Source of the DNA: an uncultured Gemmatimonadota bacterium
Lineage (GTDB): Bacteria; JAAXHH01
Assembly (NCBI GenBank): GCA_951812955.1
Contig: OX638340.1
Coordinates: forward strand, 800,001 to 864,000
Direction of reading: 5' to 3'
DNA: 64,000 nucleotides
This document shows positions 8,412-53,145 of this stretch, one piece after another; positions within the stretch are counted from its first letter, which is position 1, and each line of letters starts with the position of its first letter. Both the position numbers and the translations under genes were made by a program. Under the pieces are notes generated by a model that did not search any database, was not told where the DNA came from, and saw only the letters and a program-made list of their open reading frames with translations.

Positions 8412-8418
8412 CTCGATA

Positions 8419-23976: not shown

Positions 23977-26488
23977 TTACCGGGGTCCTCGCACCGCCGT
24001 GGAATCTATCGCTTTAGAACCGGGCGTGGAGGCGCCGCCGAACAGACTGAGCCGGCCCGAGATCGCGGCTTCCACGTCCAGGTCGTAAACCTGGGAAATG
24101 GTGGTAACGATGGGACGGATCTGCTTTTCAATGTAATGACCGTAATCAACGGGCGCGTCAAGCTGGCCTTCCGGTTGAGGTCCGTCTCGCGTGATCACGT
24201 ACCGAATGACGCCGGTGGGATTGTCCATGAGTCTGGCGGCCTTTACGTGGGGCGGTACCGAGCGCGTGTAGAACTCCACCGGTTTTCGCAGGTTCTTTCT
24301 GTACACCAGCAGGTCGTCTTTTTGCCCGGACTGTACAGAGAGGACCCACCTGAAGATCTCGTCTTCGATCTCGACACCGGGCGATTCGTGAAATACCCGG
24401 TCGAGCAGGACGGCCTGCAGCTGGTGCGCCAGGTCGGTCCAGTCCCTTCGTACTGCTTCCATCCCGACGATTTCCACCCGGTCGCCATCGCGGTCGCGTC
24501 TGAGCCCCGCGTATCCCTTGGCCCGTCCCCGTTCGCTGTCCCCCCGCATGGATGGCAACAGAAACCGGTGGTAGTGCTTTTCCAGTTCCAGTTCGAGAAA
24601 AGAGGAAACGCCATACCGCTCCTTGACGTGCTCGGCAAGCCGTTCGTTGATACGATTGCACACCGCGCCACCGAGCCTAAGGGCTTCACCCGGATCGGCA
24701 AGGTCTGGCGCGTTCAGATCGACGAAAACCGAGTCGGTATCCCCATACAGCACCTTGTAGCCGTCTTTCTCCAGCTCGTCGCGACACCACCTTAGAATGT
24801 AGTGGCCGAACTCGGTGATTGCGCCGGCCAGCTGGGGCGCGGCGAATCGGCAGGAAGCCGACGCCAGCACGCCGTAGAACGAATTCATGACGATCTTGTA
24901 GGTGAAGGAAGCAAGGTCGTCGCCGCTGGCCTTGGCCTCCTCGCGGCTTTTAAAGAACTGCTCCAGCATGGAGGGCAGGATGCCGGGCGTTCGGGTGAAT
25001 CGCGCGCCGTTGGGCGCGGTAAGACAGTCATCTTCGTCCATCTCGTCCCGTGCCTCGATATGGGCCAGGGGATCGATGTTGAAGGTTCGTATGATGGACG
25101 GATAAAGGCTCTTGAAATCAAAGACGAATATGTTCCTGTACAGCCCTGCCTTCGACGGTATGATGAGCCCCCCCGGCGCGCCGGCGCCCGGGGTACGGTC
25201 CACGCCGGTTGTCGGCGCCACCATGCTGCGCTGATGCAGGGCGTTGATGTAGATATTGTCGAAGGCGGCCACGCTCACCCAGGCGCGTTCCAGTGGCAGG
25301 CCCGTGAGCAGTCCCCTGCGCAAGGTAAGGTTGATCAACCCTTCCGCTTCCAGGATATCCAGAACCAGCCGGGCATCCTCCAGGCAATAGGCGCAGAAGA
25401 GGTTACGGTCCTCGCGATAGACTTCCGTGATCTGCTCCGCCCTCGAATTCCCCGAATCCTCTTCGAGCAGCTTACCCCGGCCCAGGATGGCGTGGGCCAC
25501 CGTGCCCAGCCGGTAGTCATCGAACCTTTGCAGCGTGCCGCGCAGGAGATGCAGGGCATCCAGGATCTGGCGCCCGTGGATGACCATGGTGCTGCCGCCC
25601 CAAACTTCGCCGGACCGGTACCAGGACTGGTCCGCCGTCCGCCCGAGCTGAAAAGGCACGTTCAGGTCCCTGAAGCGCCGTTGCAGCACTTTCATATCGA
25701 AGTCGACCAGGTTCCATCCGGTGAGCAGGTCGGGATCCATTTCGAGCAACCTCGCCGACACACCGCGAAGCATCGACGCCTCGTCGGCCCAGCAGACCAG
25801 GGAGGCCGGGTCACCCGGAGCGGGTGCGCCCACCATGTGGATTTCTTCCGATTCGACGCCCGAGATCGTATCCGCGAGGATCAAGCCGACGGCGTAAATG
25901 GTGGTCGCTTTCGGATCCGTTTCTATGTCCAGAGCCAGTACGCGGAATGACGGCTCCCAGTAAGCAGGCTTCAGCGTAGGGTTGGCATACACTCGGTCGA
26001 CCCGGTCGCCGGGCGTCCAGGAACCGCTGATCCGGACGCCGCCGCGCAATCCAAGTCCGATCAGGAACTGTCTGCCGAAAGGCAGGTCGCCTTCGTAACT
26101 TCGCGTGCCCTGGGCCTCGAGCCCTTTGGCCAGGCCGCGCTGATCCCGTACGCGGTCGCACTGGACGCCGACCACCGGTTCGCCATCCATGGTTGTGTAT
26201 TCCGACGGGACTAACCGTGCCGTGACCTCGTTGGAACCGATCCGGTCGGATGCCGCCTGCGTTTCCGAGGTCCTGACGAAGAGTGCAGGAGAAACGCGAT
26301 CATCCGTAAACAGGAACGTATGACCACCCTGGAGCTTGCCGACGCCGCAGATGACGTCACGTCCGCGCTCCGTGCGATGAAAGACGTGGAGCAGGTAGCC
26401 TACGTCTCCTCCGCCATCCGGGGATTCGTGCTGATCCGCGGGGTCACTGGACGGAAGTGAGCGATCCCTGCCGGGGTTGTGTTCAGTT

Positions 26489-26502
<14 letters not shown>
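23977..26502 (-). CDS. polB: DNA polymerase II (family B, PolB)
   Basis: Exo motif LALDIETD; pol motifs [34 protein letters not shown]. Confidence 0.9.
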
Positions 26503-29446
<2,944 letters not shown>

Positions 29447-29476
29447 CCAGGTGACTCCGTAATACGTCTGGCACCT

Positions 29477-30481
29477 TCAGGGCCGGTAATGGTAGAAAGC
29501 GAGTTCTTCGTACTCCACGTTACTTTTAAGCGTCAGTCTGTGCGGGCTCGACACCCGGCTGATGATCTCTTTGTCCGCCAGCCATTCGCATACCGTCGTC
29601 ACGCCCCGGAGATTCATCTGGTTATCGAAGTATGTTTCGATTTCCGTGACCGAGCGGACCGAACCCTCCTCCGCCAGGTAATCGAGTATGGGCTGGAACA
29701 TTACAGGAATGCGCTCTTCCAGGTACGCCTCGATGCGCGTGAGGGCGCCGGCGATCGCTTCGCTGGAAACAGGCTGGTCGATCAGGCGGGTGTATACGGC
29801 ATCGAAAAAGTCCGGATTCAACCGAAGCGCCTGTTGGATGACTTCACGGCTGGCCAGTTGACTGTCGAGAAACACCTCAATCTTTGCCAGTCCGTTCACA
29901 CAGTGCAATATGTAAAGGAAACTGTAGTGAAGATCCTCCTTCACGTGAAACCACTTCTCGGCTTTGTACAGGGTAGGTATCACGAAAGCGCCGGCATGCA
30001 TGAGCTGCACCTGCCGGTCTCTCTCCTTAAGTTCCCCGATACCCTCGTACAGTTCGCGAATGGTTTCGTCCCGGGTAAACAGCAGGCGGCTTTCCGCGAA
30101 CGAGGCATGCATGAAGGAGCTTTGCAGGCCCCCTTCTATCATTTTCCTGAACGCGGAACGGGGCTGCATGAACACGTGAATGTATACGTCGTGTTCCAGG
30201 AGTGCCGCGCCTTCCGAGACCTCGTCGTCGTCCCTGCCTTCCTTGCGAAAAAGGTCCTTGTCGTCTCGTGTTACGACGATCAGGTCGATATCGGATTTCT
30301 CCCAGACACGGTCGGCGGAAAGGCTACCGAACAGAATCGCCGCAAGCACGTGGCGGTCCTGTTTCGCCTTCGCGACAAAGGCGTCGAGAGCTGCCTCGAA
30401 CCGCTGCTGTATAGACTGTGATGTGTTTTCCATCGAGGTATCCCGCCAGCCGAACAATTCTACCGCCCGGCCGTTTGACAT
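29477..30481 (-). CDS. nucleotidyltransferase-fold (Pol-beta superfamily; ANT/KNTase-like) protein
   Basis: GS...D.D NTase motif AAILFGSLSADRVWEKSDIDLIVV, followed by a ~200-aa helical C-terminal domain. Ends 30 nt upstream of uvrA on the same strand. Start is 30481 or 30433. Confidence 0.5.
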   Translation of the reverse strand: MSNGRAVELFGWRDTSMENTSQSIQQRFEAALDAFVAKAKQDRHVLAAILFGSLSADRVWEKSDIDLIVVTRDDKDLFRKEGRDDDEVSEGAALLEHDVYIHVFMQPRSAFRKMIEGGLQSSFMHASFAESRLLFTRDETIRELYEGIGELKERDRQVQLMHAGAFVIPTLYKAEKWFHVKEDLHYSFLYILHCVNGLAKIEVFLDSQLASREVIQQALRLNPDFFDAVYTRLIDQPVSSEAIAGALTRIEAYLEERIPVMFQPILDYLAEEGSVRSVTEIETYFDNQMNLRGVTTVCEWLADKEIISRVSSPHRLTLKSNVEYEELAFYHYRP

Positions 30482-30763: not shown

Positions 30764-32332
30764 GTGACCTTCACGCCCAATGGACCGCATTCTTCCGCCG
30801 TGCATGCCGTTCTGCGCCATCGGGGCGGCCTCGCCCCGGAGCTGAGGCCCGATCCGACGCTCTTCCAACGAGTCGGGGGCCGATCCGTGATCGCGAAGGT
30901 AATCGACGGGCTGTACGACCGGATCGAAGTAGATTCCGACCTGCGTCCGATGTTTACCCGGACATTGGCTCCGGAACGTATGAAACAGAAAGCCTTCCTC
31001 GAAGAATGGATGGGAGAAGAACCGGGCTATACCCATCATCACGCCTACGGCGGAATCAAAAACCGCCACGGGCATATTCACATCACGCCGGAATCCGCGG
31101 AACGGTGGCTGGCGCACATGACCGATGCGTTGCTCGAGCATGTGAGGGATGACCGGCTCGTGAACGAAGCGCTGGCCACCCTCGGTCCCCTCGCCCGCGG
31201 ACTCGTCAACGAGAAGAAGCCACCAGAAAGCCCCGGACAACTCAGATGCTTCAGGGAAAAACGATGGAGACAGCCGGCCAAAATGGCGGCCAGGGGACAG
31301 ATGGAAGCACTCGAGAACTTTCTCGAGGAGGATTCCACGGTATTGGGCGATCCTCGTCACAGCGCAATCATCCTCGCGGAAGCGGCGCTGAGGGGCCATA
31401 CGCGGGTCGCGGCCCTGCTGCTTGACCGGGGGGTGGACGTAAACATACCATCTGCCCATTCGAGCGATATCATGATGACCGCCTATTGTGCCGCGCGAAG
31501 CAAGAGAAAAGACGAAACGGCCGGTTACCTGGCGGACCGCGGCGCGGTGTACGATGTCTTCAGCGCCTGTTTTCTCGGAGACATGGACCGGGTTGCCGTC
31601 CTGCTCGAAGCCCATCCCGGCCTGGTCAACGCAAGCGACCCCGCCTGCGACCTGTTGCCCGTGACCCCGTTGCACCATGCCGTGTACGGCGGCCATGAAC
31701 CCGTCGCCAGGTTCCTCTTTGAACGTGGCGCGGAGACCGGCGTGAACAGCACAGCCCTGTTGAAATACGCGGCGGAACGGGGACAGGCGAGCCTGGTCCG
31801 GTTGTTGCTGGCACACGGGGCGGATGCTTCGAGGATCGGTTGCGGCCGCTGGGTCGTCGATCCCGAGATCTCCGCGCTCCTGCTCGCCCGCGGCGCGGAC
31901 GTGAACTATCCCGATGGGAATTGGGTCTGGACGGCATGCACGGGAAACAACAGCCAGCGGGACGACCCCGCCTACGTGCAGGCACTGCTGGACAAGGGGG
32001 CCCGGATCGATACGGTTCTGCGCGGCGCCCAGGCACTGCACTTTGCCGCAAAGGCGGGATTCACTGGGGTCATGGAAGTGCTGTTGGAAAACGGGGCGCC
32101 GGTCGACGGGCAAAATGACGATGGCGAAACCCCCCTGTTCTACGCGCTGAAGGCGGGTCCCAGGGCCGATGTTGTCAAATCCGTGGAACTGCTGTTATCC
32201 CATGGCGCAGATCCGAATATTGAAGACAGGCTGGGCAAGACGCCCCTGGGAAATGCCTGCCGGATGAAGCGTCCCGATAAAGCTCGAATCGTCTCGGTGC
32301 TCGAAGCGGCTAGTCCTTCCTTACCGGCGTAA
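30764..32332 (+). CDS. truncated hemoglobin (2/2 Hb) N-terminal domain fused to an ankyrin-repeat domain
   Basis: Globin part: LFQRVGGRSVIAKVIDGLYDRIEVDSDLRPMF...KQKAFLEEWMGEEPGYTHHHAYGGIKNRHGHIHITPESAERWLAHM (the trHb pattern, with proximal-His region). Then seven or more ANK repeats (..TPLHHAVYGGHEPVARFLFERGAE..). Start codon uncertain (GTG/ATG near 30764). Confidence 0.65.
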   Translation: MTFTPNGPHSSAVHAVLRHRGGLAPELRPDPTLFQRVGGRSVIAKVIDGLYDRIEVDSDLRPMFTRTLAPERMKQKAFLEEWMGEEPGYTHHHAYGGIKNRHGHIHITPESAERWLAHMTDALLEHVRDDRLVNEALATLGPLARGLVNEKKPPESPGQLRCFREKRWRQPAKMAARGQMEALENFLEEDSTVLGDPRHSAIILAEAALRGHTRVAALLLDRGVDVNIPSAHSSDIMMTAYCAARSKRKDETAGYLADRGAVYDVFSACFLGDMDRVAVLLEAHPGLVNASDPACDLLPVTPLHHAVYGGHEPVARFLFERGAETGVNSTALLKYAAERGQASLVRLLLAHGADASRIGCGRWVVDPEISALLLARGADVNYPDGNWVWTACTGNNSQRDDPAYVQALLDKGARIDTVLRGAQALHFAAKAGFTGVMEVLLENGAPVDGQNDDGETPLFYALKAGPRADVVKSVELLLSHGADPNIEDRLGKTPLGNACRMKRPDKARIVSVLEAASPSLPA

Positions 32333-33347
32333 TGTCTTTCAAAAACTTAACAAGAGATTTTCGCTCCGCCGTCGGGCCGTGTATTTCAATCCCCACTTCC
32401 GCCCATACCAGCGGCGTCGTGCCGTGTTCATCGTCTGTCGCGGCGGGATCGGCGCCGGATTCGACGAGCAACTTCGCGATCTCCCTGTTCCCGCATAGAT
32501 GGAGGGGCGTCTGCCCGAAATCCGCACGGGCGTTAGCATCCGCTCCCCAGTCCAGCAGCGCCCGGACCGTATCCTCCCATCCATGCTGAACCGCGGCGTG
32601 AAGTGGCGTGCCCACCACGGCGTGGACGCCGATCTTTCCCGAATATGCTGTGACACCCCCATCTCTTTTGTGGACCTGGCGTAGTTCGTCTGTCCTTCCA
32701 AGCGCCGCAAGCTGGCACGGGTCGGCCGGCGCGCCGCGCGCAATCAGGAATTCCGCGACCGCGCGGCACCGCTCCCCGCGGGAAAGGGCCGCGCCCAATG
32801 GCGTGTTGCCCTCGCTGTCGAGCGTATTCAGGCGCGCTTGGTGGTCGAGAAGCAGCCCGGCCGTTTCGACTGACATGGCCACGTGGAGGGGTGATACTCC
32901 GCCTAGGTCAGGGCGGGCCGCCGCTTCAGGATCTTCCGCGAGAATCGCACGAACGGTAGAGACGTCATCTAGCAGGCACGCGGCGTGGATGTCGACCCTG
33001 GCGCCCCGGTCCCGCAATAGAGCGGCGGCCTCAAGGTGTCCCCAGTGTGCGGCCAGGTGCAAGGCGCTCCAACCGCCGTAGGAATCGGCGCCGTGGTTCG
33101 GATCCGCTCCATTCCGCAGCAGCAATTCGATCACCCTCGTATCCCCGCGCTCGGCCGCCAGTTGTATAGGCACGGGACGGCCTCCCCAACGGGGATGGGC
33201 CACCGGTTCATTAACGATACCGGGCTCACGGGAAAGGACTTCTTCGACCTGCTCCGGGTCACCCTGCCAGATGGCGGCTCGCAGTCGTTCCTTCGCCGTC
33301 TCGCCGTTCCGGGCCGTCTGACCGCCGGGTTCAAGGGGAGTGGACAT
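32310..33347 (-). CDS. ankyrin-repeat protein
   Basis: ANK repeats (..SALHLAAHWGHLEAAALLRDRGARVD..; ..TPLHLCGNREIAKLLVESGADP..). Start chosen at MSTPLEP (ATG 33347, RBS AAGGAAGGA); the ORF is open to 33470. Confidence 0.8.
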   Translation of the reverse strand: MSTPLEPGGQTARNGETAKERLRAAIWQGDPEQVEEVLSREPGIVNEPVAHPRWGGRPVPIQLAAERGDTRVIELLLRNGADPNHGADSYGGWSALHLAAHWGHLEAAALLRDRGARVDIHAACLLDDVSTVRAILAEDPEAAARPDLGGVSPLHVAMSVETAGLLLDHQARLNTLDSEGNTPLGAALSRGERCRAVAEFLIARGAPADPCQLAALGRTDELRQVHKRDGGVTAYSGKIGVHAVVGTPLHAAVQHGWEDTVRALLDWGADANARADFGQTPLHLCGNREIAKLLVESGADPAATDDEHGTTPLVWAEVGIEIHGPTAERKSLVKFLKDITPVRKD

Positions 33348-33534
33348 CGGTCTATCCTTCCTTTCTCCATGTTCTGTCATCGAACGGTCGAACGATTCGT
33401 CGATGAATGGGTGTACGTTTACACGATCCAGCGTAGTGGAAAGGCTGGAGGGGAACGGTATTGGGCCCATGATCTGTCCGTCCGGGTTCCTGCCGGGATA
33501 GGTTTTTTCAGGCGACGGCTCTTGTTTTTCGGAG

Positions 33535-33621
33535 GCGATCCGCGATGGCCGCGAAGAAGGCGTCCATGTCCGCGTGCAGGATCGTACGGGATTGATTCAC
33601 GATGGGCTGGATTGGACTACA
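33535..33621 (-). pseudogene. remnant of a dinB (Pol IV) 5' end, duplicated together with the downstream ankyrin gene
   Basis: Minus strand translates ...VNQSRTILHADMDAFFAAIADR..., matching MNRIRTILHADMDAFFAAVEQR of the intact dinB at 44674. About 40 nt are near-identical at DNA level. It is stopped after ~19 more codons. Confidence 0.5.
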
Positions 33622-33840
33622 TCACACAAAAACCGCGTTGCAGGATTGTTAGTCCTGATTATACTGTCTGGCGTGGATTCTTACAAGCGCATCGGGAAAG
33701 CGGATCAGCAAAAATCAGTCTATCGCGCGGGATGTGCGTTGGATGTGCGTTGGAAATTGCGTCGATCCATTTGCGGTGGGACGGTTGAATGTCGTGATAC
33801 CGCGCGGACCCGACTCAACCGCAGCATTGAGGGAGGTAAC

Positions 33841-34452
33841 ATGCCCGGTTATGAGGCACTGAACCAGGCGCTGATCCGTGCCGTGGAAGACGGTGATGTC
33901 GAAAGGGTAAGGGAGGCTGTAAGGCAGGGCGCCGATGCGGCGTGCATTACGCCCGCGCATATTCCTCCCCAGAAGGAAACCGACGAACATTACGAGATTA
34001 TGCGATATCTTTTTGCTAGGGGGACCGATGTCAACTTCGCCGGATTCGAAGAAGGGATACTCATGACCTTCTCGGCATACCGCGGACAGTTGCGTTATCT
34101 TCGCCTCTACCTGGAAGCCGGCGCCGACATCAATCTCGCCCAGCCTATGAACGGCGTTACGGGCCTGCACGTGGCGGTTCAGCACAATCTACTGGAAATC
34201 GTACGATTCTTTCTCGACCATGGCGCCAGGGTCGACCAGGCCTGCCACGATGACGCGCCGACCCCGGATCCCGGTCACGTATACGGAGAAACGGCCCTGC
34301 ATTTCGCCGCGGCGGGCGCCGACAGGGAGATCGTACAAATGCTCCTGGATGCCGGTGCGGACCGGTCCGCTATTTCTTCCCGAGGCGAATCGCCGCTGGA
34401 CTACGCGATGCAGAATAACCGGCCGGAAGACGTGCTTCGGCGGCTCAGGTAG
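33841..34452 (+). CDS. small ankyrin-repeat protein (paralog A; ~80% identical to 44808-45419)
   Basis: MPGYEALNQALIRAVEDGDVERV...ITPAHIPPQKETDEHYEIMRYLF...GVTGLHVAVQHNLLEIVRFFLDHGARVD..; RBS GGGAGG. Confidence 0.8.
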   Translation: MPGYEALNQALIRAVEDGDVERVREAVRQGADAACITPAHIPPQKETDEHYEIMRYLFARGTDVNFAGFEEGILMTFSAYRGQLRYLRLYLEAGADINLAQPMNGVTGLHVAVQHNLLEIVRFFLDHGARVDQACHDDAPTPDPGHVYGETALHFAAAGADREIVQMLLDAGADRSAISSRGESPLDYAMQNNRPEDVLRRLR

Positions 34453-34578
34453 GTTGAAAGGGGTAGCAGTAATCCGTTTGAACACGCCCTTAATACGTTG
34501 ACAAAAAGGGCCTAATGCCAGCAAATCATCCTCGCTTCATGCGCTTTTCGCAGGATTTATGCACAATAAAGGTTAACC

Positions 34579-35757
34579 ATGCAACATAGTATCGTTATGA
34601 AAGAAAAGGGACGCTACAACGCGTTTCCTGTATTGACTCAACTTCCGGACGGGCGGTTGACGATCGGCTGTTTCTCTTCGCCTTTCGGGGATCACTACGG
34701 TCTGGCAGACTGGCTGACGTTCGTGTCCTGCAACAACGGACGAACCTGGACGCTGTCGGAAGATCCTTCGTTGCCACCCAACTGGCCCGGTACATCGCCG
34801 CGGGAGCGGTACGACAGACTTTCCGGCATTTTACCCGATGGAACCTTTATGGCTGTGGGCTCGGTGGGACCGGAAATCTGGACACTGGACCGTCGGGAGG
34901 AAGCGGAGGCGCGGGGCCTGAGTTTCGTAGAGGATGAGACGTACACGTCTCTTTTTCCGGGAAAGCTGATCATAAAGGGTTATCGACTGTCGACGGTACG
35001 ATCCCGGGATGAGGGACATTCCTGGGATCGGCGCACCTGGACCGTGCCAGGCTATGAATTTACGGTCGGTTTTCCACGCGGAATTGTACTCGAAGACGGT
35101 ACGTGGTTGTTTCCTGTTTACACAATGCGAGCCGGGGGCGGGGGCGGGGGCGATTGTCTCATATTCCGGTCCAGCGACGACGGAGAGACCTGGCATCTCC
35201 ATGAGGCGGTGCCGCGTATCGGCAGCGAATGGGCACTGGTAGAGACCGAGCCGAACCGTGTCCTGGGCCATATCCGCTCGACGTGTTACTGGGCGCCGGG
35301 TGTTGTTAAGCATACCTATCAGAAGGACCGGTTCTACACCTTGGAAGTCTGGTCCGAAGACGGCGGCAGGACCTGGACCTGCCCGGTAGAGACGTCATTC
35401 GAGGGCTATCCGAACCACCTGCTCAAATTGAGTGACGGACGTATTCTATGTACCTATGGCTATCGCCGAGCCCCGATGGGTATACGGGCCTTGATTAGTG
35501 AGGACGGCGGACGCACCTGGGACACAGACCGCGAATACGTGCTCCGGGATGACGGCGGTGGCTTATCGAATGAGTGGCCTCCGGAAAAGCGTGCCCGGAT
35601 GGGCGGCGCGGACGTGGGCTATCCGATTTCAGCGGAATTGGGTGACGGTACCATGCTGACCGTCTATTACATCACGACGGAAGATGGCATCACCCATGTC
35701 GCTGCCACCCACTGGCATCCTGACCACGATAGACCTACAAGTCCTCGAAGAGGGTAA
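34579..35757 (+). CDS. BNR/Asp-box repeat sialidase-like (exo-alpha-sialidase fold) protein
   Basis: Asp-boxes SCNNGRTW, SRDEGHSW, SSDDGETW, SEDGGRTW (twice). Contains a (GGGGGC)3 tract encoding a Gly6 run. Confidence 0.7.
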   Translation: MQHSIVMKEKGRYNAFPVLTQLPDGRLTIGCFSSPFGDHYGLADWLTFVSCNNGRTWTLSEDPSLPPNWPGTSPRERYDRLSGILPDGTFMAVGSVGPEIWTLDRREEAEARGLSFVEDETYTSLFPGKLIIKGYRLSTVRSRDEGHSWDRRTWTVPGYEFTVGFPRGIVLEDGTWLFPVYTMRAGGGGGGDCLIFRSSDDGETWHLHEAVPRIGSEWALVETEPNRVLGHIRSTCYWAPGVVKHTYQKDRFYTLEVWSEDGGRTWTCPVETSFEGYPNHLLKLSDGRILCTYGYRRAPMGIRALISEDGGRTWDTDREYVLRDDGGGLSNEWPPEKRARMGGADVGYPISAELGDGTMLTVYYITTEDGITHVAATHWHPDHDRPTSPRRG

Positions 35758-35843: not shown

Positions 35844-37577
35844 TCAGGAAACGGCACCGGCTTCCCGCAGACGGTCCGCGATGGACGCGTGCCCGTACCG
35901 TTCCGCCCAGGCGAGCGGTGTGGTCCAGGGTTCCCCATCGGGCTGAGGATCGGCACCGTGCTGGAGATACAGTTCGACCAGATCCTCGCGTGCCCAGCGG
36001 GACGCCCAGGCGAGCGGCGTGGAGTGGAGCAGCGTGTCCCTGCCTTCGAGCGTGGCGCCGTGGTCGAGAAACAGGCGGGCGAACTCGATCCGCTCGTCCT
36101 CTCTCAGCACCGGCTCTCCCCAGACCTTGCCCGTTGCCGCGATATGATGAAGGAGGGATGTGTCGCGCCGGCCCTTCACGTTCGGGTCCACCCCGTGGTC
36201 GAGGAACATGCGTACGATATCGGGGAATATGGATCGATCGAAATCACGGTACTGGCGATGGGGACAACAGGGCCAGAGACGAATAGGCTGGATGATCAGA
36301 CCGTACCACCGGGGGTCGTCCAGGGCCCAGTCCAGTTTGCGCAGGCACACGCCCACCACGCTGGGATCACCGCCGCAGGCGGCCCCCCAAAGAATCTCCT
36401 CGACCAGTTCAGGCTTGAGGCTCAGCGCCATGACCGCCGCAGAGGTATCGCATTCCAGGGCCGCACTGTCGGGAGTCATCGAACCGCCGTACCTGTAGAG
36501 CAGACGCTTCATGCGTTCGTCCCTGTTGTTGTAGGCGCGGCTCATGGGATCGCCAGACGCGTAAACGGCGGCGTTAGGATCGGCACCGCGATCCAGAAGC
36601 AGTTGCGCGATGTCGTACATCCCGTCGCCCGCTGCGATCCAAAGCGGTTCGCCCCAGTTGTATGTTTCTTCTTCCAGGGATTGTATTCGGTACCGCTGGT
36701 CCGGGTCCATGCCGAGATCGAGCAGCAGCTTCACCATCTCGTATCGTTTATGACGGACAGCATCACCCAGCAGGTGGGTTTCGGTTTCAATATCCGGTTC
36801 GAACTGGTCCTGGTGACTTTCCGCGATCTGACGTACGGCTTCCAGGTCTCCAAGCATGACACTCGTTCGAAGACTTCGCGGGGCCCCCGCGGTCATCAGG
36901 ATGCCCGCGGCCATGAAACAGCCTTCAGCCCGGCGCCTGTCCGTTGCGACGGTTTGTTCCGCAGCCAGCTCGAGCGGAGTCCGGCCCTCCAGGTTGGTCT
37001 TGCCCGTATCGGCGCTGGCAGTCAGCAGCGCTTGAACGAGACCGGGATAGCCGTGGCTGGCGGCGTGGTGCAGGACCGTGTTTCCGTTCTCGTCGCAGGC
37101 CTCCGCTAGTTCGGGCGTTTCGTGTATATCCCGCATCGCGCCCGCCACATCGCCATCCTCCACTTTTCGGGCGAGCAGAACGACCTCTGGGGAAACGGTC
37201 AGGTTCGGACAGAGGTTCGCCTCGCGTCTCCGCTCCAGTTCTTCATTGATTGTTTCTATGATATCACCGAATCCGCGGTCGCGAGCCATAGCCAGGGGCG
37301 TGGACGCGTCCCTGTGGGGATAGACCCCCTGGTTGGGATCGGCGCCCGCGGCCATGAGTGCGGAAACGGCTTCCGTCTGGCGGTTTACCACCGCGTGATG
37401 CAGGGCACGGTGCTCATCGAAAGAAGCCGTATCCACACCCACCAGGTGGGGTGCGACGGCCAGAATGGTATTAAGGCGTTTCATGTCTCCGGCGGCGGAC
37501 GCCTGGCACAGTTCGGCCACGGTGAAGACGCCGGAGGTCATCCCGTTCGTCATGATTCCTTCTCCTCGATTCGTCAT
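35844..37577 (-). CDS. ankyrin-repeat protein (577 aa)
   Basis: Many ANK repeats (..TVLHHAASHGYPGLVQALLTASAD..). Two alternative ATG starts (37577, 37553) created by a 24-bp tandem duplication; overlaps the upstream SRPBCC stop (ATGA). Confidence 0.85.
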   Translation of the reverse strand: MTNRGEGIMTNGMTSGVFTVAELCQASAAGDMKRLNTILAVAPHLVGVDTASFDEHRALHHAVVNRQTEAVSALMAAGADPNQGVYPHRDASTPLAMARDRGFGDIIETINEELERRREANLCPNLTVSPEVVLLARKVEDGDVAGAMRDIHETPELAEACDENGNTVLHHAASHGYPGLVQALLTASADTGKTNLEGRTPLELAAEQTVATDRRRAEGCFMAAGILMTAGAPRSLRTSVMLGDLEAVRQIAESHQDQFEPDIETETHLLGDAVRHKRYEMVKLLLDLGMDPDQRYRIQSLEEETYNWGEPLWIAAGDGMYDIAQLLLDRGADPNAAVYASGDPMSRAYNNRDERMKRLLYRYGGSMTPDSAALECDTSAAVMALSLKPELVEEILWGAACGGDPSVVGVCLRKLDWALDDPRWYGLIIQPIRLWPCCPHRQYRDFDRSIFPDIVRMFLDHGVDPNVKGRRDTSLLHHIAATGKVWGEPVLREDERIEFARLFLDHGATLEGRDTLLHSTPLAWASRWAREDLVELYLQHGADPQPDGEPWTTPLAWAERYGHASIADRLREAGAVS

Positions 37578-37593
37578 GATTCCTTCTCCTCGT
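37546..37593. repeat. perfect 24-bp tandem duplication (TTCGTCATGATTCCTTCTCCTCG[A/T]) spanning the RBS/start junction of the SRPBCC-ankyrin gene pair
   Basis: Read directly. On the coding (minus) strand each copy carries GGAGAAGGAATC-ATGA, that is RBS, ATG and the overlapping TGA. Confidence 0.6.
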
Positions 37594-38074
37594 TTGAGTC
37601 GTCGTTACCCGCGACCAGGTGGCCGTACCGATCCACGTAAGTCTTCATGAGATCGTCGTAACGGTCTTCTACGGTGGTCCCGGCCAGATACGGTCCCAGG
37701 TGGTCGATGAAGGCGTGCCAGCCCGCGGCGAAACCCATCAGGATATCCGGGGTAACGTGGGAATTCGTGAATCGCAGCCGTGTGCCGCCTTCACGGGGTC
37801 CAAGCTCCCATCTTAGCACGGAGAGTCCCCAGGTATAGGCGAACACCCGTTCAGGCGCCCATTCACAGACAATGCCCTCCAGGTTCCCTTCTGATTTGAA
37901 ATCCACGAAAAACCGGCCGCCGATCCGGCGCTCCAGCGAGGTCTCATACTTCATCCACGCAGAGATTCCGTCCGCCGTCGTGACGGCATCCCACACCCGG
38001 GAGACCGGATGGGCGTACGTCCGTTCGATTTCTATACAGTATTCCGGCGTTATCCTGGCCAGAGATTCTGCCAT
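37574..38074 (-). CDS. SRPBCC-superfamily protein (AHSA1/Aha1-like, START/Bet v1 fold)
   Basis: 166 aa; ...VWDAVTTADGISAWMKYETSLERRIGGRFFVDFKSEGNLEGIVCEWAPERVFAYTW... is the AHSA1-domain pattern. Confidence 0.65.
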   Translation of the reverse strand: MAESLARITPEYCIEIERTYAHPVSRVWDAVTTADGISAWMKYETSLERRIGGRFFVDFKSEGNLEGIVCEWAPERVFAYTWGLSVLRWELGPREGGTRLRFTNSHVTPDILMGFAAGWHAFIDHLGPYLAGTTVEDRYDDLMKTYVDRYGHLVAGNDDSNEEKES

Positions 38075-43504: not shown

Positions 43505-44674
43505 TCAGGGTTCTATTGATGAAATACCATGGTGTATCGCGCGACGTCCGTAACGGTCCCGTATGGTATCCAGCGCGCGCACGAGACGATCCGACTTCTC
43601 GTGGCCGCTCTTGAATAGATCGGTTTGAATGGGCTCCTCCGGCCTGACCAGGTTACCGACGGCCAGGCCGAGCAGCCGAATACCCTTCTTGCCGTCCCAT
43701 ACCGCATCAAACAGTTCCACGGCCGCTTTGCCAATTACGAAATCGTTATCCATCGGCGCCACGGCCGTCTGCCTCGTCAGCGTCTTGAAATCTCCGTAAC
43801 GGACCTTGATCCGGACCGTTCTGCCCTGGCGTCCCGCCTTACGAAGACGGCGACCCACCTTGCCGCTCTGGTCCACCAGGACGCCGTGGCATGCCTCCCG
43901 GTCCAAAAGGTCCGTACCAAACGTATTCTCGTGACCGACCGACTTCGCCGGATTGCCGGAGACCACGGGCCGGTCGTCCTGACCACGGGAGATGTTCGCA
44001 AAATGAGCGCCGGCAGCATTACCGATCAATCGCTGCAGTTCCTCCGATGGTCGTTTCTGAACATCCCCAATCGTACTGAAACCCAGACGTACCAGACGAT
44101 CCTGCATGTCCTTGCCCGCGCCCCAGAGACATGAAACGGGCAGCGGTGCCAGGAAATCCACTATGCTATCCGGCGGAACGATCACCAGTCCATCGGGCTT
44201 GTCCAGGTCGGAAGCCACTTTCGCCACATACTTGCACGGCGCGACGCCGACGGATATGGTGAGACGCGTTTCATTCAGCACGTCCGTCTTGATTGATCGG
44301 GCGATCGCTTCGCCGTCGCCGAAGAGCTGCGATGAACCCGTGACATCCATGAATGCTTCGTCAAGCGACAAAGGCTCGACGAGCGGTGTATACCGGTTGA
44401 AAACGTCATGGATCTGCCGTGAAACCTCGCCGTAAGCCTTCGATCTGACGGGCAGAAAGATACCGTGTGGACATAGTTTCCTGGCCGTCGAGCCCGGCAT
44501 GGCCGAGTGGACACCGAACTTGCGAGCTTCGTACGAACAGGTCGACACGACAGACCGTGGTCCATCACCACCGACGATGACCGGTCTTCCGCGCAATTCC
44601 GGCCGGTCCCGCTGCTCGACGGCCGCGAAGAAGGCGTCCATATCCGCGTGTAGGATGGTGCGTATGCGATTCAC
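43505..44674 (-). CDS. dinB: DNA polymerase IV (Y-family, DinB)
   Basis: MNRIRTILHADMDAFFAAVEQRD..., SLDEAFMDVTG, and the little-finger domain. Confidence 0.9.
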   Translation of the reverse strand: MNRIRTILHADMDAFFAAVEQRDRPELRGRPVIVGGDGPRSVVSTCSYEARKFGVHSAMPGSTARKLCPHGIFLPVRSKAYGEVSRQIHDVFNRYTPLVEPLSLDEAFMDVTGSSQLFGDGEAIARSIKTDVLNETRLTISVGVAPCKYVAKVASDLDKPDGLVIVPPDSIVDFLAPLPVSCLWGAGKDMQDRLVRLGFSTIGDVQKRPSEELQRLIGNAAGAHFANISRGQDDRPVVSGNPAKSVGHENTFGTDLLDREACHGVLVDQSGKVGRRLRKAGRQGRTVRIKVRYGDFKTLTRQTAVAPMDNDFVIGKAAVELFDAVWDGKKGIRLLGLAVGNLVRPEEPIQTDLFKSGHEKSDRLVRALDTIRDRYGRRAIHHGISSIEP

Positions 44675-44807
44675 GATAGCCAGGCAGGCAAACGATGGAA
44701 AAGTGAATACATTGACCAGTAACTATACAACCAATTAAACTATACCTACTGCCGGCGTACAAGTGCTTTGTTGACCTGGTAAACTGACCACCGGGAGGGA
44801 GAAAACA

Positions 44808-45419
44808 ATGACCGACAAGGCCGATCTCAACAAGTTACTGATAGATTCCGTGGAGCATGGTGACCCGGTGACAGTATCCAGGGCGGTTGAAATGGGAGCC
44901 GATCCATCCTGCATTACTCCTGCACACATACCGCCTCAGCGGGAAACCGAGGAGCATTTCGAGATCATGCGATACCTGTTCTCCGTGGGTACTGACGTCA
45001 ATTTCGCCGGGCTCGACGAGGGCATCCTCATGACCTTTTCCGCTTACCGCGGACAATTGCGATACCTGCGCCTGTACCTCGAAGTCGGCGCGGATATCAA
45101 CCTCGCCCAGCCCATGAACGGCGTCACGGGACTGCACGTGGCGGTCCAGCATAATCTGCCGGACGTCGTACGATTCTTCCTCGAAAACGACGCCATCGTC
45201 GATCAGGCCTGCCACGATGACGCGCCGACAACCGATCCCGGTCACGTATTTGGAGAAACAGCCCTGCATTTCGCCGCAGCAGGCGCCGACAGGGAAATTG
45301 TTGAAATGCTCCTGGCCTTCGGAGCGGACCGCGCTTCGAAATCTTCCAGGGGAGAAACACCGCTGGACTACGCGGTTCGCAACAGCCGGTCTCCGGACGT
45401 GCTGCGTTTACTCAAGTAG
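44808..45419 (+). CDS. small ankyrin-repeat protein (paralog B of 33841-34452)
   Basis: MTDKADLNKLL...ITPAHIPPQRETEEHFEIMRYLF...GVTGLHVAVQHNLPDVVRFFLEN...; RBS GGGAGG. Confidence 0.85.
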   Translation: MTDKADLNKLLIDSVEHGDPVTVSRAVEMGADPSCITPAHIPPQRETEEHFEIMRYLFSVGTDVNFAGLDEGILMTFSAYRGQLRYLRLYLEVGADINLAQPMNGVTGLHVAVQHNLPDVVRFFLENDAIVDQACHDDAPTTDPGHVFGETALHFAAAGADREIVEMLLAFGADRASKSSRGETPLDYAVRNSRSPDVLRLLK

Positions 45420-47650: not shown

Positions 47651-47829
47651 GCAAGCTCCCTTAACACTTTTTTTGCATCGAGCTTATGATACAGTGCGGT
47701 TCGACTGGTTTCAGACTTTGAAAACCAACGTACTCCACACAGGAAAGACGGACAAGCCCAAACTCCTGCGTGGATTCTCTTTGCCAGCTTGCCAGGTGAT
47801 AGATAGGTTTTATAGCGTCAGGATAACAA

Positions 47830-48957
47830 ATGTGGAGGGGTATGAACCACGACGCATTGCAGGTATCAAGGCAAGCCGATGGCAGATGGAGGCTTCATCT
47901 CGACCGGAATGGAGAGGAGCTCTGTCGGATCGTACTGGTCAGGGAAATCCTGCGCATCGGACGATCTCGGATAACGGCCGGTGGGGTAGCGGGACTCTAT
48001 ACACCACCTGATCGTCGCATGGAAGGACATGCTCGAGAGTTGATGGCGGCGTCCCATGATTTCCTGCGGGAAAAAGACTGCTCCATTTCCTTGATGAATG
48101 CCATCCCCGGTTTCTACCACCACTTCGGTTACGACGTGGTGTTTCCGGTGTATAGACTCTTTGTAGATACGGATACGCTGCTTCAAAACCGCAGGCAACA
48201 CAGCGTGCGACGGGCTCGCAAGATTGACCAGCCTGTGCTGGTGAGGCTTTATAACGCGTGTAATCGGTACCGTACAGGCACCCTGGTTCGTAGTGCGGAC
48301 TGGCGCTTCGACGGGCTCGTCAACTATGGCCGCCCGCCGGGGGTCTTGTTGATGACGGAGGACAGTCGGAGCCGGGTGACGGGATACACCCTGTGCAGGC
48401 CCCGGGGTGACCGGTATTTCGTACAGGAGCTCAATGGCCGTACACAAGAAGCTTTCGAGTCGCTGGCCCACGCAATTGGAACGCGTGCTCGCCGGGCCGG
48501 ATTCAAGCGGGTCCACTTCAGGATGCCGCTTGACCATCCATTCGGCGTGTTTTGCAGTCGGCTGGGTTGCGAGTGGGAGATCCAGTACCACGTAAACGCG
48601 GAGGACATGGGGCGCGTGCTCGATCTGCCACGATTCCTGTCGGAATTGCGTGCGGAACTAGGCTTCAGGCTACGTAATTCATTGTGCACCGCAGACACCA
48701 GTCTCTGGTTTCACACCGAGTCCGGAGGAGCAGGACTGAAGATCGAGCGTGGCAGTATACGTCGAATCAAGCATCCTGGCCCTGACGCTCAGGAAATAAC
48801 CATCCCGCAGACCGCCCTGCTGCAACTGGCATTGGGTTTTCGCTCGGTATCCGAGGTGGCAGGTACGGCAGACGTGCGAATGCCCCGCTCCGTAAAACCC
48901 GTGATGGAGGTTCTTTTTCCGCAAACACCCGTGACCATGCCCATGATCGGAGTATAG
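47830..48957 (+). CDS. GNAT-family N-acetyltransferase, Eis-like architecture (GNAT + C-terminal SCP-like domain)
   Basis: Acetyl-CoA motif region ...RIGRSRITAGGVAGLYTPPDRRMEGHARELM...; about 375 aa with a C-terminal amphipathic domain. Confidence 0.45.
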   Translation: MWRGMNHDALQVSRQADGRWRLHLDRNGEELCRIVLVREILRIGRSRITAGGVAGLYTPPDRRMEGHARELMAASHDFLREKDCSISLMNAIPGFYHHFGYDVVFPVYRLFVDTDTLLQNRRQHSVRRARKIDQPVLVRLYNACNRYRTGTLVRSADWRFDGLVNYGRPPGVLLMTEDSRSRVTGYTLCRPRGDRYFVQELNGRTQEAFESLAHAIGTRARRAGFKRVHFRMPLDHPFGVFCSRLGCEWEIQYHVNAEDMGRVLDLPRFLSELRAELGFRLRNSLCTADTSLWFHTESGGAGLKIERGSIRRIKHPGPDAQEITIPQTALLQLALGFRSVSEVAGTADVRMPRSVKPVMEVLFPQTPVTMPMIGV

Positions 48958-49014
48958 GGACTGCTGTGCGAGGGTGTTCTCTATCTTCTTCACAACAATC
49001 AATGGGGGAACGCG

Positions 49015-52085: not shown

Positions 52086-52093
52086 CAGCCAAT

Positions 52094-52972
52094 CTACCGC
52101 TCCTGTGACTTGAATTCGTTCCAGTAGTCACGGACCGTCGCTTCCACGCTCTCTGGATATTCGAACGACAATTGTACGGCCAGCGTGCGCCCCACGCGCG
52201 AAACCTCGTCCCGATGCAGTTCAATCGATTCCATCAGCTCCAACCGCGTACGCCCTGGCACTCCCAGGATATCCAACGGGCTATCGTAAAACCTCAATAT
52301 CGATCGGACCTGGGGCGTTAAGGAATGAATGCTTGGCCGCAATGCCCCTGTATCCTGCCCTATGGCATGAATCGTCCACAGACGCATGATTATCGTACGT
52401 TCGTTCTGCAATCCCAGGACAACCATGGGGTCCAGTCCGCGATAGAGAATCTTGCAATGTTTGTTACTCCGAAGCCAGAAATCTATGATCACCTGTCGTA
52501 CCTGCGCAGGATCGGGATCTATAAACGGCGATTCGGGTGATGCGTGTACCGGCTCCGTGAGCGATCTGGCAAGCGCCGGATCCCGACATCCCAGGACAAC
52601 GCAGGCTTCGCCGGGGGAAACCCCTTGAACCTCCTGTATACCAAGGTCGTACATGTCGCCGGTGTCCAGCAGAAGATGAAGCAGCATACTTTCCTCGTTC
52701 TGGAATAGTTGTTGGTGTGCGACACATCTGCCCTCGAAAAGTGCCGTCAAATCGGGCGTTTCCCATTCCTTGAGCCGCGTGGCGGGAACCGCCAGTCGCA
52801 GATCCACGTCGCTATACAGATCCGCGTCGCTATACAGATCCGCGTTTCCCTGTCCGAAACTTCCTTCAACCCAGATCGCCCGTACCTCTTCGTTGCGCCA
52901 CAGGTTCGATGCGATTCGCTTCAGTGTCTTAGTCTGAGGTAGATCGGGGAGGGATGAAAAATCCAGCTCCAT
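52094..52972 (-). CDS. nucleotidyltransferase-fold protein, ANT(6)/AadK-like (aminoglycoside nucleotidyltransferase family)
   Basis: IWVEGSFGQGNADLYSDADLYSDVDL matches the ANT(6) VTLEGSRAN...SDYDI motif; the core contains an in-frame 18-bp tandem duplication. RBS AGGAG before ATG 52972. Confidence 0.5.
   Translation of the reverse strand: MELDFSSLPDLPQTKTLKRIASNLWRNEEVRAIWVEGSFGQGNADLYSDADLYSDVDLRLAVPATRLKEWETPDLTALFEGRCVAHQQLFQNEESMLLHLLLDTGDMYDLGIQEVQGVSPGEACVVLGCRDPALARSLTEPVHASPESPFIDPDPAQVRQVIIDFWLRSNKHCKILYRGLDPMVVLGLQNERTIIMRLWTIHAIGQDTGALRPSIHSLTPQVRSILRFYDSPLDILGVPGRTRLELMESIELHRDEVSRVGRTLAVQLSFEYPESVEATVRDYWNEFKSQER
52802..52844. repeat. about 2.4 copies of an 18-bp in-frame tandem repeat (ATCC[A/G]CGTCGCTATACAG) inside the NTase catalytic loop
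   Basis: Read directly; it encodes ADLYSD-ADLYSD-VDL. Confidence 0.55.
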
Positions 52973-53145
52973 GATAGACTCCTGTTTTGGATTTCGACTC
53001 AGGATATAAACCGCGCGGAACACATCCGTGTATTTGGGCTAAATGAAAATTCGAGTGTCATTCCCAAAAATGAATTGATTTTAGTCTCTACTGTAATCCT
53101 ATTGGAGCCAGTATACAAACACGATGAAACAAGCTGAGAACAAGC

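What the first reader, a model, noticed from the sequence alone, without database searches (positions are those of the whole stretch)
33535..34452. Segmental duplication: an ankyrin gene was copied together with a fragment of the dinB 5' end
The small ANK genes at 33841-34452 and 44808-45419 are about 80% identical at protein level. Paralog B sits directly divergent from intact dinB (start 44674). Upstream of paralog A, the minus strand of 33535-33600 encodes ...SRTILHADMDAFFAAIADR, a near-identical ~40-nt copy of the dinB N-terminus (MNRIRTILHADMDAFFAAVEQR) that then runs into a stop. This marks a past duplication of the dinB-promoter/ANK unit. The intergenic spacers have since diverged completely, which implies selection to keep the ANK copy but not the promoter context. 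It is direct evidence that the ANK repertoire here is expanding by local duplication.
Basis: seen in the sequence. Interest (0 to 1): 0.6.

Follow-up and report, generated by a model that had tools for sequence, protein, structure and literature searches.

The report
Second ankyrin gene with dinB scar
A symbiont-type bacterium carries an extra copy of a small ankyrin gene that still drags along the first ~20 codons and promoter region of the neighbouring DNA-polymerase gene dinB, but the extra copy is a different lineage's version of that cassette rather than a diverged copy of the one already in the genome, so this is an ordinary though nicely documented case of gene-family growth by allele import.

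Summary
Window 33543-33603 matches the dinB 5' end at 44617-44677 (51/61 nt, E 5e-11), collinear with two 203-aa ANK genes (79% nt, 75-77% aa). In 13 related Latescibacterota species and 9 further contigs whose neighbours are visible, this ANK gene is single-copy and always beside dinB and/or sfsA. Relatives show an empty site upstream of the BNR gene, so 33529/33545-34456 is a 0.91-0.93 kb insertion with microhomology at its ends and no transposon features. The two copies are not sisters (0% bootstrap). ANK-A, its dinB scar and its whole 240-nt spacer belong to the "A-type" cassette of other species (100% bootstrap), including a conserved divergent promoter core. The spacers therefore did not "diverge completely". 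The resident dinB/ANK-B cassette looks vertically inherited: 94-98% identity to a sister lineage, and dS to relatives equal to the backbone. ANK-A is about twice as close to A-type orthologs (dS 0.37-0.47) as the backbone is (0.78-0.98). The best reading is ectopic capture of a foreign-lineage allele, kept under purifying selection (omega about 0.12). An earlier in-genome copy followed by replacement of the resident allele is not excluded. Interest is modest.

The parts
33529..33600 (-). dinB 5' scar. GTG start at 33598-33600, then 16-24 dinB codons (VNQSRTILHADMDAFFAAI...). The frame runs on to a TGA at 33508-33510. The left junction lies somewhere in 33529-33552.
   Evidence: blastn 51/61 to 44617-44677 and tblastn E 1.4e-5. 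Identity is 57-58/66 to A-type dinB (L003, L004, L011) but 52/66 to the window's own dinB, with diagnostic bases GATGGCC and CCATGTCC. GATGGCCG (33545-33552) also occurs in the native-site relic of L010 and, as GTTGGCCG, L027.
33601..33840 (.). A-type divergent intergenic region copied with the gene. Minus-strand promoter-like site TTGTAA (33686-33681)-17-TATAAT (33663-33658) points into the scar. Plus-strand TTGCAG (33638-33643)-16-TATACT (33660-33665) points to ANK-A. SD AGGGAGG lies at 33830-33836. An 11-nt tandem duplication GGATGTGCGTT x2 lies at 33730-33751.
   Evidence: Full-length alignment with the spacers of L003, L017, L022-L026 and partial alignment with L004, with no alignment to spacer B. 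The minus-strand promoter was found by the scan at 10/12. The plus-strand site was read by eye and aligns with the TTGACC-18-TAAACT site the scan found in spacer B.
33841..34452 (+). ANK-A: intact 203-aa ankyrin-repeat gene, an A-type allele.
   Evidence: Pfam Ank_2 E 2.8e-24. 100% bootstrap with L003/L004/L017. dN/dS 0.11-0.13 vs A-type orthologs. Protein identical in L001/L002.
34453..34456 (.). Right junction: GTTG microhomology, shared by the 3' flank of the ANK locus and the native sequence upstream of BNR.
   Evidence: A/B homology ends at 34456. Flank homology to L027, L028 and L055 starts at 34452/34453 ('CG|GTTGAAAGGGGTAGCAG').
33357..33528 (.). Native left flank of the insertion site.
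   Evidence: Homologous to sequence lying next to the BNR upstream region in L010, L012, L014 and L015.
34457..34578 (.). Native right flank of the insertion site (BNR upstream region).
   Evidence: Homologous to L010, L012-L015, L027, L028 and L055.
43505..44674 (-). Resident full-length dinB (Pol IV), B-type.
   Evidence: Pfam IMS/IMS_C/IMS_HHH_1. Groups with the B-group at 95% bootstrap. 94.3% identical to sister lineage L059.
44675..44807 (.). Resident B-type divergent intergenic region.
   Evidence: About 80% identical to the spacers of L009-L015. Promoter-like TTGACC-18-TAAACT at 44712-44741. 96.2% identical to L059.
44808..45419 (+). ANK-B: resident 203-aa ankyrin-repeat gene at the ancestral dinB-adjacent position.
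   Evidence: Pfam. Same position (dinB <- -> ANK, sfsA <-) in the 13 relatives and in L017, L019, L020, L023, L027 and L059; short contigs show only one neighbour. 97.7% identical to L059.

Best explanation
Window 33529/33545-34456 is a 0.91-0.93 kb ectopic copy of the 'dinB 5' end / divergent promoter region / small ANK gene' cassette. It was joined by microhomology-mediated illegitimate recombination into the intergenic site upstream of the BNR (sialidase-like) gene, 11 kb from the native cassette and in the same orientation. The copy does not derive from the cassette now resident in this genome (B-type, vertically inherited). It is the A-type allele, which in other Candidatus Latescibacterota species occupies the native dinB-adjacent site. 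The most likely history is import of DNA from an A-type lineage and its retention as a second, xenologous ANK gene. Import may have gone through a transformation-type tandem-duplication intermediate later trimmed by a deletion that left the dinB scar. Shown: the insertion, its junctions, the A-type identity of scar, spacer and gene, the vertical status of B, and purifying selection on both copies. Inferred: the direction and mechanism of transfer, and that the copied dinB-type promoter now reads towards the neighbouring 345-aa ANK gene (32310-33356, minus strand).
For: Single copy beside dinB and/or sfsA in 13 species plus 9 further contigs whose neighbours are visible; both neighbours are seen in 19 of these 22 loci. 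Empty site in L010/L012/L014/L015 and L027/L028/L055. ANK tree: A with the A-clade 100% (third positions alone 100%, positions 1+2 98%), B with the B-group 100%, A+B 0%. 21 of 22 A/B diagnostic sites in the A unit are A-like. Scar and spacer align with A-type loci, not with the resident locus. Resident dinB and ANK-B have dS 0.64 and 0.77 to the B-group, against a pooled backbone of 0.82-0.90. ANK-A has dS 0.37-0.47 to the A-clade, against a backbone of 0.78-0.98. Sister lineage L059 shares the B cassette at 94-98% identity, like its flanks, and no A-type ANK protein is recorded on its 387,783-bp scaffold. Exchange between lineages demonstrably happens here: the BNR patch is 93-96% identical to L005-L008 and the AHSA1 patch is also discordant. 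Three independent assemblies carry identical junctions.
Against: The insert lies only 11 kb from the native cassette, in direct orientation, exactly bracketing the BNR...dinB block. That geometry is what a purely in-genome tandem duplication plus deletion or a template switch would give, and it would be a coincidence for a random foreign insertion. No donor is sampled: the closest ortholog is 92% aa with dS 0.37. Within the A-clade itself, ANK and dinB also show a low distance relative to the backbone (ratio 0.53-0.61), so rate heterogeneity could mimic 'younger than the backbone'. One backbone gene (AHSA1) has an equally low dS. Absence of the A unit in L059 is indirect, because the fetched locus stops about 300 nt short of the A position. 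No vehicle was found: no IS element, integrase, TIR or TSD.
Confidence: 0.58

Rival explanations
1. In-genome origin with later allele turnover. An A-type cassette once sat at the native site of this lineage, either vertically or after introgression by homologous recombination. It was copied 11 kb upstream by tandem duplication plus internal deletion, or by replication template switching. The native cassette was then replaced, or reverted, by homologous recombination with a B-type allele.
For: The geometry fits. The copies are direct repeats offset by 10,967 nt. The right junction joins the ANK 3' end to the BNR upstream region, as a tandem-duplication junction would. The left junction looks like a microhomology deletion (GATGGCCG). 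Homologous allele replacement between lineages is evident nearby: the BNR and AHSA1 patches, and the L011 chimera with A-type dinB plus B-like spacer and ANK.
Against: The resident B cassette is shared with sister lineage L059 at background identity, and its dS to the B-group equals the backbone. B therefore looks ancestral, and at least three events are needed (introgression, duplication, reversion), or else an unsampled donor plus loss in L059. ANK-A's dS to the A-clade is half the backbone value, which does not fit a vertical A-type.
Confidence: 0.27
2. One reading: simple local duplication of the resident dinB-promoter/ANK unit, followed by divergence of the two copies and complete decay of the spacer.
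For: There are two collinear homologous pieces in the same orientation 11 kb apart.
Against: A+B sister grouping has 0% bootstrap. Each copy nests in a different clade of single-copy orthologs. Spacer A is conserved with A-type spacers. The scar matches A-type dinB better than the genome's own dinB. dS(A,B) of 1.1 equals the between-species divergence, yet the insert is absent from all 13 sampled species.
Confidence: 0.03
3. Ancient duplication in the common ancestor of all these species, with the ectopic copy lost everywhere except here, and A-type or B-type fixed at the native site by gene conversion.
For: The A/B divergence is deep (dS about 1).
Against: Relatives show clean empty sites of two different kinds. 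The A/B distinction extends over the whole of dinB and GyrI, far beyond the 0.93-kb unit, so conversion from the ectopic copy cannot explain it. Many independent losses would be required.
Confidence: 0.05
4. Assembly chimera: reads of a co-occurring A-type strain were mis-joined in a MAG.
For: The source is a metagenome-assembled genome from a community that holds related lineages.
Against: Identical junctions occur in three independent assemblies from different samples: the 3.8-Mb contig, a 298-kb scaffold and a 32-kb contig. The junction lies inside dinB codon 16-24, not at a repeat boundary.
Confidence: 0.02

Closest known systems
Xenologous paralogs: protein-family expansion by horizontal transfer rather than duplication
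   Same: A second family member sits in one genome, and its nearest relatives are orthologs in other lineages rather than the co-resident copy. Both copies are kept under purifying selection.
   Different: The donor is a close relative, from a species complex at about 80-85% nt identity. The insert is tiny (0.93 kb), carries no mobile-element genes, lands 11 kb from the native locus, and carries a scar of the neighbouring gene that proves cassette-wise copying.
Tandem duplication (merodiploidy) triggered by natural transformation, then trimmed (Johnston et al. 2013, PMC3784515)
   Same: Donor DNA that is partly homologous to the chromosome can create a tandem duplication whose novel junction holds donor sequence. 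This would explain both the foreign allele and the position bracketing the BNR...dinB block.
   Different: In S. pneumoniae the junctions form at IS-sized repeats by homologous pairing, and the duplications span 100-900 kb. Here the junctions are 4-8 nt microhomologies, the unit is 11 kb, and no intermediate was found. Competence of this organism is unknown.
[quoted passage not shown]
   Same: Ectopic DNA is joined at microhomologies at both ends without homologous arms, and it replaces a stretch of native sequence.
   Different: SPDIR is described as producing microindels. This insert is 0.93 kb and holds a complete gene. The left microhomology is ambiguous.
Eukaryote-like ankyrin-repeat proteins of sponge symbionts (PMC12993501; PMC7081726; Nguyen et al. 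2014 Mol Ecol, listed in the reference section of PMC7081726)
   Same: The genome is ANK-rich, with about a dozen ANK genes at roughly 30-60 kb in the window. The phylum and sources match sponge- and coral-associated Latescibacterota/PAUC34f, where ANK genes are reported as enriched.
   Different: No function has been tested for this 203-aa family. It is distinguished by a strictly conserved divergent pairing with dinB. No signal peptide is evident by eye.

Membership tests
In-genome segmental duplication of the resident cassette | The two copies are each other's closest relatives, compared with orthologs in other genomes. | tested here: not met
   A+B sister grouping has 0% bootstrap. A groups with L003/L004/L017 at 100% and B with the B-group at 100%.
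In-genome segmental duplication of the resident cassette | The non-coding parts of the two copies are homologous to each other. | tested here: not met
   Only the 61-nt dinB piece aligns. Spacer A aligns with A-type spacers and spacer B with B-type spacers.
In-genome segmental duplication of the resident cassette | The extra copy is derived, meaning absent at that site in outgroups, and lies near the source in direct orientation. | tested here: met
   Empty sites in L010, L012, L014, L015, L027, L028 and L055. The offset is 10,967 nt on the same strand.
Horizontally acquired (xenologous) allele | The gene tree conflicts with the resident copy and the backbone, and the copy nests in another lineage's clade. 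| tested here: met
   (21 of 22 diagnostic sites are A-like).
Horizontally acquired (xenologous) allele | Synonymous divergence to the donor clade is lower than the genome backbone's divergence to that clade. | tested here: met
   dS is 0.37-0.47 against 0.78-0.98 pooled over up to 16 backbone genes (12-14 per A-clade genome). Caveat: A-clade genomes show a similarly low ANK/backbone ratio among themselves.
Horizontally acquired (xenologous) allele | The copy is absent from the closest sister lineage. | tested here: inconclusive
   No A-type ANK protein is recorded on L059's 387,783-bp scaffold.
Horizontally acquired (xenologous) allele | An identifiable donor or a near-identical source sequence exists. 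| tested here: not met
   Outside the species, the best match is 92% aa (P0054) and 88-91% nt.
Transposon / IS-mediated insertion | Terminal inverted repeats, a target-site duplication, or a transposase or integrase in the insert. | tested here: not met
   No flanking TIR or TSD. The insert holds only the scar, the spacer and ANK. A weak transposase-like relic (DUF772, E 0.005, below cutoff) exists at the empty site of relatives, not in the insert.
Y-family DNA polymerase IV (DinB; Pfam IMS PF00817) | IMS catalytic core plus the little-finger (IMS_C) domain. | tested here: met
   The resident gene 43505-44674 matches IMS at 5.9e-53 and IMS_C at 7.4e-28. The copy at 33529-33600 keeps only codons 1-16/24 and ends in a stop, so it is a scar and not a member.
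Ankyrin-repeat proteins (Pfam Ank_2 PF12796 / Ank PF00023) | Significant matches to the ANK repeat models over most of the protein. | tested here: met
   ANK-A matches Ank_2 at 2.8e-24 and ANK-B at 3e-19.
Microhomology-mediated illegitimate recombination | Short identical sequences shared by the two partners at each junction, with no long homology. | tested here: met
   Right junction: GTTG (34453-34456) is shared by the ANK 3' flank and the native BNR upstream sequence. Left junction: GATGGCCG is shared by A-type dinB and the L010 relic, but the exact breakpoint within 33529-33552 is ambiguous.

The most novel reading that the evidence does not exclude
The dinB-ANK cassette exists as several deeply diverged haplotypes (A, B and an L006-L008 type; dS about 1) that move between Latescibacterota species by recombination. 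L011 is a chimera with A-type dinB and a B-like spacer and ANK. A-type ANK and dinB are less diverged among their carriers than the backbone is. This genome has captured two haplotypes at once. That would point to diversifying or balancing selection on a host-interaction ANK protein whose expression is wired to an SOS-polymerase promoter region. The copied dinB-type promoter would now additionally drive a neighbouring ANK gene.
Probability: 0.2. Interest if true: 0.5.

Novelty: new member of a known kind. Interest (0 to 1): 0.3.

Why it matters
The scar of a neighbouring gene acts as a natural barcode. It proves cassette-wise copying and, together with the spacer, lets the source allele be identified. 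Here it shows that an apparent "local duplication" in an ANK-rich symbiont genome is really retention of a second allele from a related lineage. This cautions against reading paralog pairs in MAGs as in-genome duplications. It also adds a concrete, junction-resolved example to the view that symbiont eukaryote-like protein repertoires grow through exchange within a recombining species complex. It does not reveal a new kind of system.

Tried and rejected
(1) Searching for a tandem-duplication intermediate or other occupied sites: the exact junction pattern gave 0 hits in JGI metagenome contigs. The 17-mer native-flank pattern gave 30 hits, of which only L055 was a true relative, and that was another empty site.

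(2) Looking for an ectopic copy in other lineages: wherever neighbouring genes are visible, every A-type homolog context fetched (L003, L004, L017, L022-L026) places the gene beside dinB and/or sfsA.

(3) Co-import of the A unit with the neighbouring high-identity BNR patch: rejected. BNR is closest to L005-L008 (93-96%), whereas the A unit is closest to L003/L004/L017.

(4) Using fixed A-vs-B diagnostic sites to type the backbone: too few such sites outside GyrI-dinB-ANK to be useful. Pooled dS shows a star-like radiation with no nearest clade.

(5) Transposon-type insertion: no TIR or TSD.

(6) A first bootstrap run timed out and was redone with numpy. One Pfam call failed on a stop codon and was redone.

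(7) The exact left breakpoint could not be fixed. Native relic sequence and dinB are both about 70-75% similar to the window in 33529-33552.

Full report
**1. Observation**

The window (59% GC) carries an intact dinB (43505-44674, minus strand; IMS + IMS_C). It is divergently paired with a 203-aa ankyrin-repeat gene, ANK-B (44808-45419). A second 203-aa ANK gene, ANK-A, lies at 33841-34452.

- The two ANK genes share 419/530 nt (79%) without gaps. At protein level they are 77% identical over 197 residues and 75.4% over all 203.
- Upstream of ANK-A, 33543-33603 matches 44617-44677 at 51/61 nt (E 4e-14 locally, 4.8e-11 in a whole-window self-comparison).
- The minus strand there encodes VNQSRTILHADMDAFFAAIADRLRKTRAVA*. 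That is dinB's GTG start and its first 16-24 codons, running into a stop at 33508-33510.
- It is the only dinB fragment in the window.
- The same sequence and junctions occur in two independent metagenome assemblies that are about 96.6% identical to the window (L001, L002).

**2. Who the relatives are and where their copy sits**

A scan of one genome per GTDB species found 13 genomes with this gene. They are Candidatus Latescibacterota MAGs, some labelled Gemmatimonadetes or just "bacterium". Several isolate and sample names (Plut, IRC1, SB0665, TARA) hint at sponge or coral sources, but I did not verify this.

- Each genome has exactly one copy, always arranged dinB <- -> ANK with sfsA downstream. 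This is the position of the window's copy B.
- Nine further contigs reached through protein homologs, on which neighbouring genes are visible, show the gene beside dinB and/or sfsA. Six of them show both neighbours; the three shortest show only one. Three more contigs are too short to identify a neighbour.
- The family is small: 49 clusters in 5.8 billion proteins.

**3. The A unit is an insertion with defined ends**

In L010, L012, L014 and L015, sequence homologous to window 33385-33471 (to about 33529 in L010) lies tens of bases from sequence homologous to 34489-34632. In the window these are about 1 kb apart.

In L027 (the L005 genome), L028 (the L008 genome) and L055, the flank homology starts at window 34452/34453 ("...CG|GTTGAAAGGGGTAGCAG"). 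Homology to ANK loci ends at 34456 ("TAG GTTG"). The right junction is therefore a 4-5 nt microhomology.

The left junction lies in 33529-33552. There, A-type dinB (…GCTGCTCGATGGCCGCG…) and a relic sequence present at the native site in L010 and L027 (…GGCGCCGGCGCAG(A/T)TGGCCG…) are both similar to the window, sharing GATGGCCG.

The insert is therefore 0.91-0.93 kb. It has no terminal inverted repeats, no target-site duplication and no mobile-element gene. I infer that it replaced roughly 150 nt of relic sequence.

**4. The two copies are not sisters**

- In a gap-free 612-nt alignment, ANK-A groups with L003/L004/L017 at 100% bootstrap. The same holds for third codon positions alone (100%) and for positions 1+2 (98%).
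- ANK-B (with L016, a 96% relative) groups with L009, L010, L012-L015 and L019 at 100%. A+B as sisters gets 0%.
- The window's dinB groups with the same B-group at 95%.
- Of 22 sites in the A unit that are fixed differently between A-clade and B-group, 21 are A-like.
- The scar matches A-type dinB 5' ends better (57-58/66) than the genome's own dinB (52/66). It carries the diagnostic bases GATGGCC and CCATGTCC, and an upstream CACGATGGGCTGGAT that is nearly identical to L004.

**5. The spacers did not "diverge completely"**

Spacer A (240 nt) aligns over its whole length with the spacers of L003, L017 and L022-L026, and over its first ~90 nt with L004.

- The shared stretch includes the core GCGTTGCnGGATTGTTAGTCCTGATTATACTGTCT…TTACAAGCGC.
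- On the minus strand this core is a strong sigma-70-like promoter, TTGTAA-17-TATAAT (10/12), pointing into dinB.
- On the plus strand it reads TTGCAG-16-TATACT, pointing to ANK. I read this site by eye. It aligns with TTGACC-18-TAAACT, which the scan found in spacer B.
- Spacer B aligns with the B-type spacers at about 80%.

The promoter context was therefore copied intact. The two spacers are two pre-existing haplotypes.

**6. Which copy is native?**

- **Backbone.** Pooled over up to 16 backbone genes (12-16 available per relative), the window is equidistant from all relatives (dS 0.78-0.98). This looks like a star-like radiation.
- **Resident cassette.** Resident dinB (dS 0.64) and ANK-B (0.77) to the B-group fit that backbone.
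- **ANK-A.** It is at dS 0.37-0.47 from A-clade orthologs, about half the backbone value. Only one of 19 genes (AHSA1) is as low.
- **Sister lineage.** L059 is 92-98% identical to the window over 21 kb. It shares the B cassette at dinB 94.3%, spacer 96.2%, ANK-B 97.7% and sfsA 98.3%, contiguous with equally similar flanks. B was therefore resident before these lineages split.
- **Absence of A in L059.** No A-type ANK protein in any of the seven A-type clusters sits on a contig of L059's length, 387,783 bp. That scaffold, which spans the A position, apparently lacks the insert.

Together this favours import of an A-type cassette over the in-genome alternatives.

**7. What argues the other way**

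- The insert lies 11 kb from the native cassette, in direct orientation, exactly bracketing the BNR…dinB block. A tandem duplication of 10,967 nt followed by an internal deletion would produce precisely this arrangement. The novel junction would join the ANK 3' end to the BNR upstream region, and the deletion would run between GATGGCCG repeats.
- Rate normalisation shows that A-clade genomes have the same low ANK/backbone distance ratio among themselves (0.53-0.61) as ANK-A has to them (0.50-0.61).
- Recombination between lineages is common in this region. BNR (34579-35757) is 93-96% identical to L005-L008 against about 80% for its flanks. AHSA1 is discordant even within the species. L011 has A-type dinB with a B-like spacer and ANK.

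A history in which an A-type allele once sat at the native site, was copied locally, and was then replaced therefore remains possible (about 0.27). One mechanism would reconcile foreign origin with the geometry: transformation-triggered tandem duplication, with donor DNA at the junction (Johnston et al. 2013, PMC3784515), followed by trimming. That is inference.

**8. Function**

- Both copies are under purifying selection. A-vs-B gives dN 0.158, dS 1.11, omega 0.14. A against A-type orthologs gives omega 0.11-0.13.
- ANK-A is protein-identical in L001 and L002, with 2 synonymous differences in 612 nt. It sits in a low-diversity tract (7 mismatches in 1,096 nt, against 3.4% overall) that ends at the right junction.
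- The genome thus expresses, or can express, two alleles that are 75-77% identical, of a small ANK protein that is single-copy and dinB-paired everywhere else.
- The copied dinB-type promoter now points through the 30-codon scar ORF towards the 345-aa ANK gene at 32310-33356. This possible promoter capture is an inference.
- ANK and other eukaryote-like proteins are reported as typical of sponge-associated Latescibacterota/PAUC34f (PMC12993501, PMC7081726). No function has been tested for this family.

**9. Verdict**

This is a well-resolved example of a known process, family expansion by a xenologous allele joined by microhomology. I rate it as a new member of a known kind, with interest about 0.3.

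Noticed in passing
window 34579-35757 (BNR/sialidase-like gene) and its upstream region from 34453: This gene is 92-96% identical to L005-L008, while the genes on either side are about 76-84% identical to the same genomes. It is a lineage-discordant recombination patch whose left edge coincides with the right junction of the ANK-A insert. Its affinity differs from that of the A unit.
   Followed up: partly
window 33357-33470 (minus strand): The first ~38 codons of the 386-aa ORF 32310-33470 are homologous to the 5' end of a different, non-ANK gene (no Pfam match) that lies upstream of BNR in L012/L014/L015 (MDRIPIPHSLSITLDRINERHF...). The ORF then continues into ANK repeats. Gene callers start the ANK gene at ATG 33356. 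This is a second '5'-end scar' about 60 nt from the dinB scar, suggesting that the ANK genes at 30764-33356 also displaced an older gene.
   Followed up: partly
L027 9389-9999; L028 9380-9485; L055 about 8280-8885; L010 about 85-115: At the empty site upstream of BNR, relatives carry a decayed relic with a weak transposase-like match (DUF772, E 0.005, below cutoff). L027 also has a 157-nt copy (87%) of the 3' end of the ANK gene 35844-37577. The site looks like a repeated target for insertions.
   Followed up: partly
window 37574-38074 (AHSA1-like gene): This gene is only 85% identical between the window and the same-species contig L001 (overall 96.6%). Its dS is 0.24-0.26 to L003/L017 against 0.64-0.77 to the B-group. 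It is another recombinant patch.
   Followed up: partly
L011 9600-10612: L011 has a chimeric cassette. Its dinB groups with the A-type at 100% bootstrap, but its spacer and ANK are B-like. This implies a recombination breakpoint at the dinB start or spacer and shows that cassette haplotypes are shuffled between species.
   Followed up: partly
window 33730-33751: An 11-nt tandem duplication (GGATGTGCGTT x2) lies in spacer A and is absent from all A-type relatives. In the same spacer, a motif conserved in both A-type and B-type spacers next to the dinB -35 box (ACAAGCGCTTTGT, palindrome-like) has lost its right half in the window's copy A (ACAAGCGCATCGG).
   Followed up: no
window 50385-54372 (two ANK genes and 52094-53023): These genes are much closer to L006-L008 (dS 0.50-0.70) than to all other relatives (1.2-1.45). 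This is a further discordant block in the ANK-rich region.
   Followed up: no
window 47824-49014 (GNAT-like gene 47830-48957): This gene is absent from the otherwise collinear sister lineage L059, giving a presence/absence polymorphism of about 1.2 kb.
   Followed up: no
window 62443-62811 vs 63631-63999; 27389-27483 vs 29249-29343: These are the other internal repeats in the window self-comparison. The first is a 375-nt pair at 67% near the right end, spanning two adjacent minus-strand ORFs. The second is a 95-nt pair at 73% inside the UvrA-like gene, probably its two ABC domains.
   Followed up: no
window 23977-30481: A family-B DNA polymerase, a UvrA-like ABC protein and a Pol-beta-type nucleotidyltransferase lie immediately left of the ANK cluster. 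The arrangement is syntenic in L001 and L027, so dinB is not the only repair gene in this neighbourhood.
   Followed up: no
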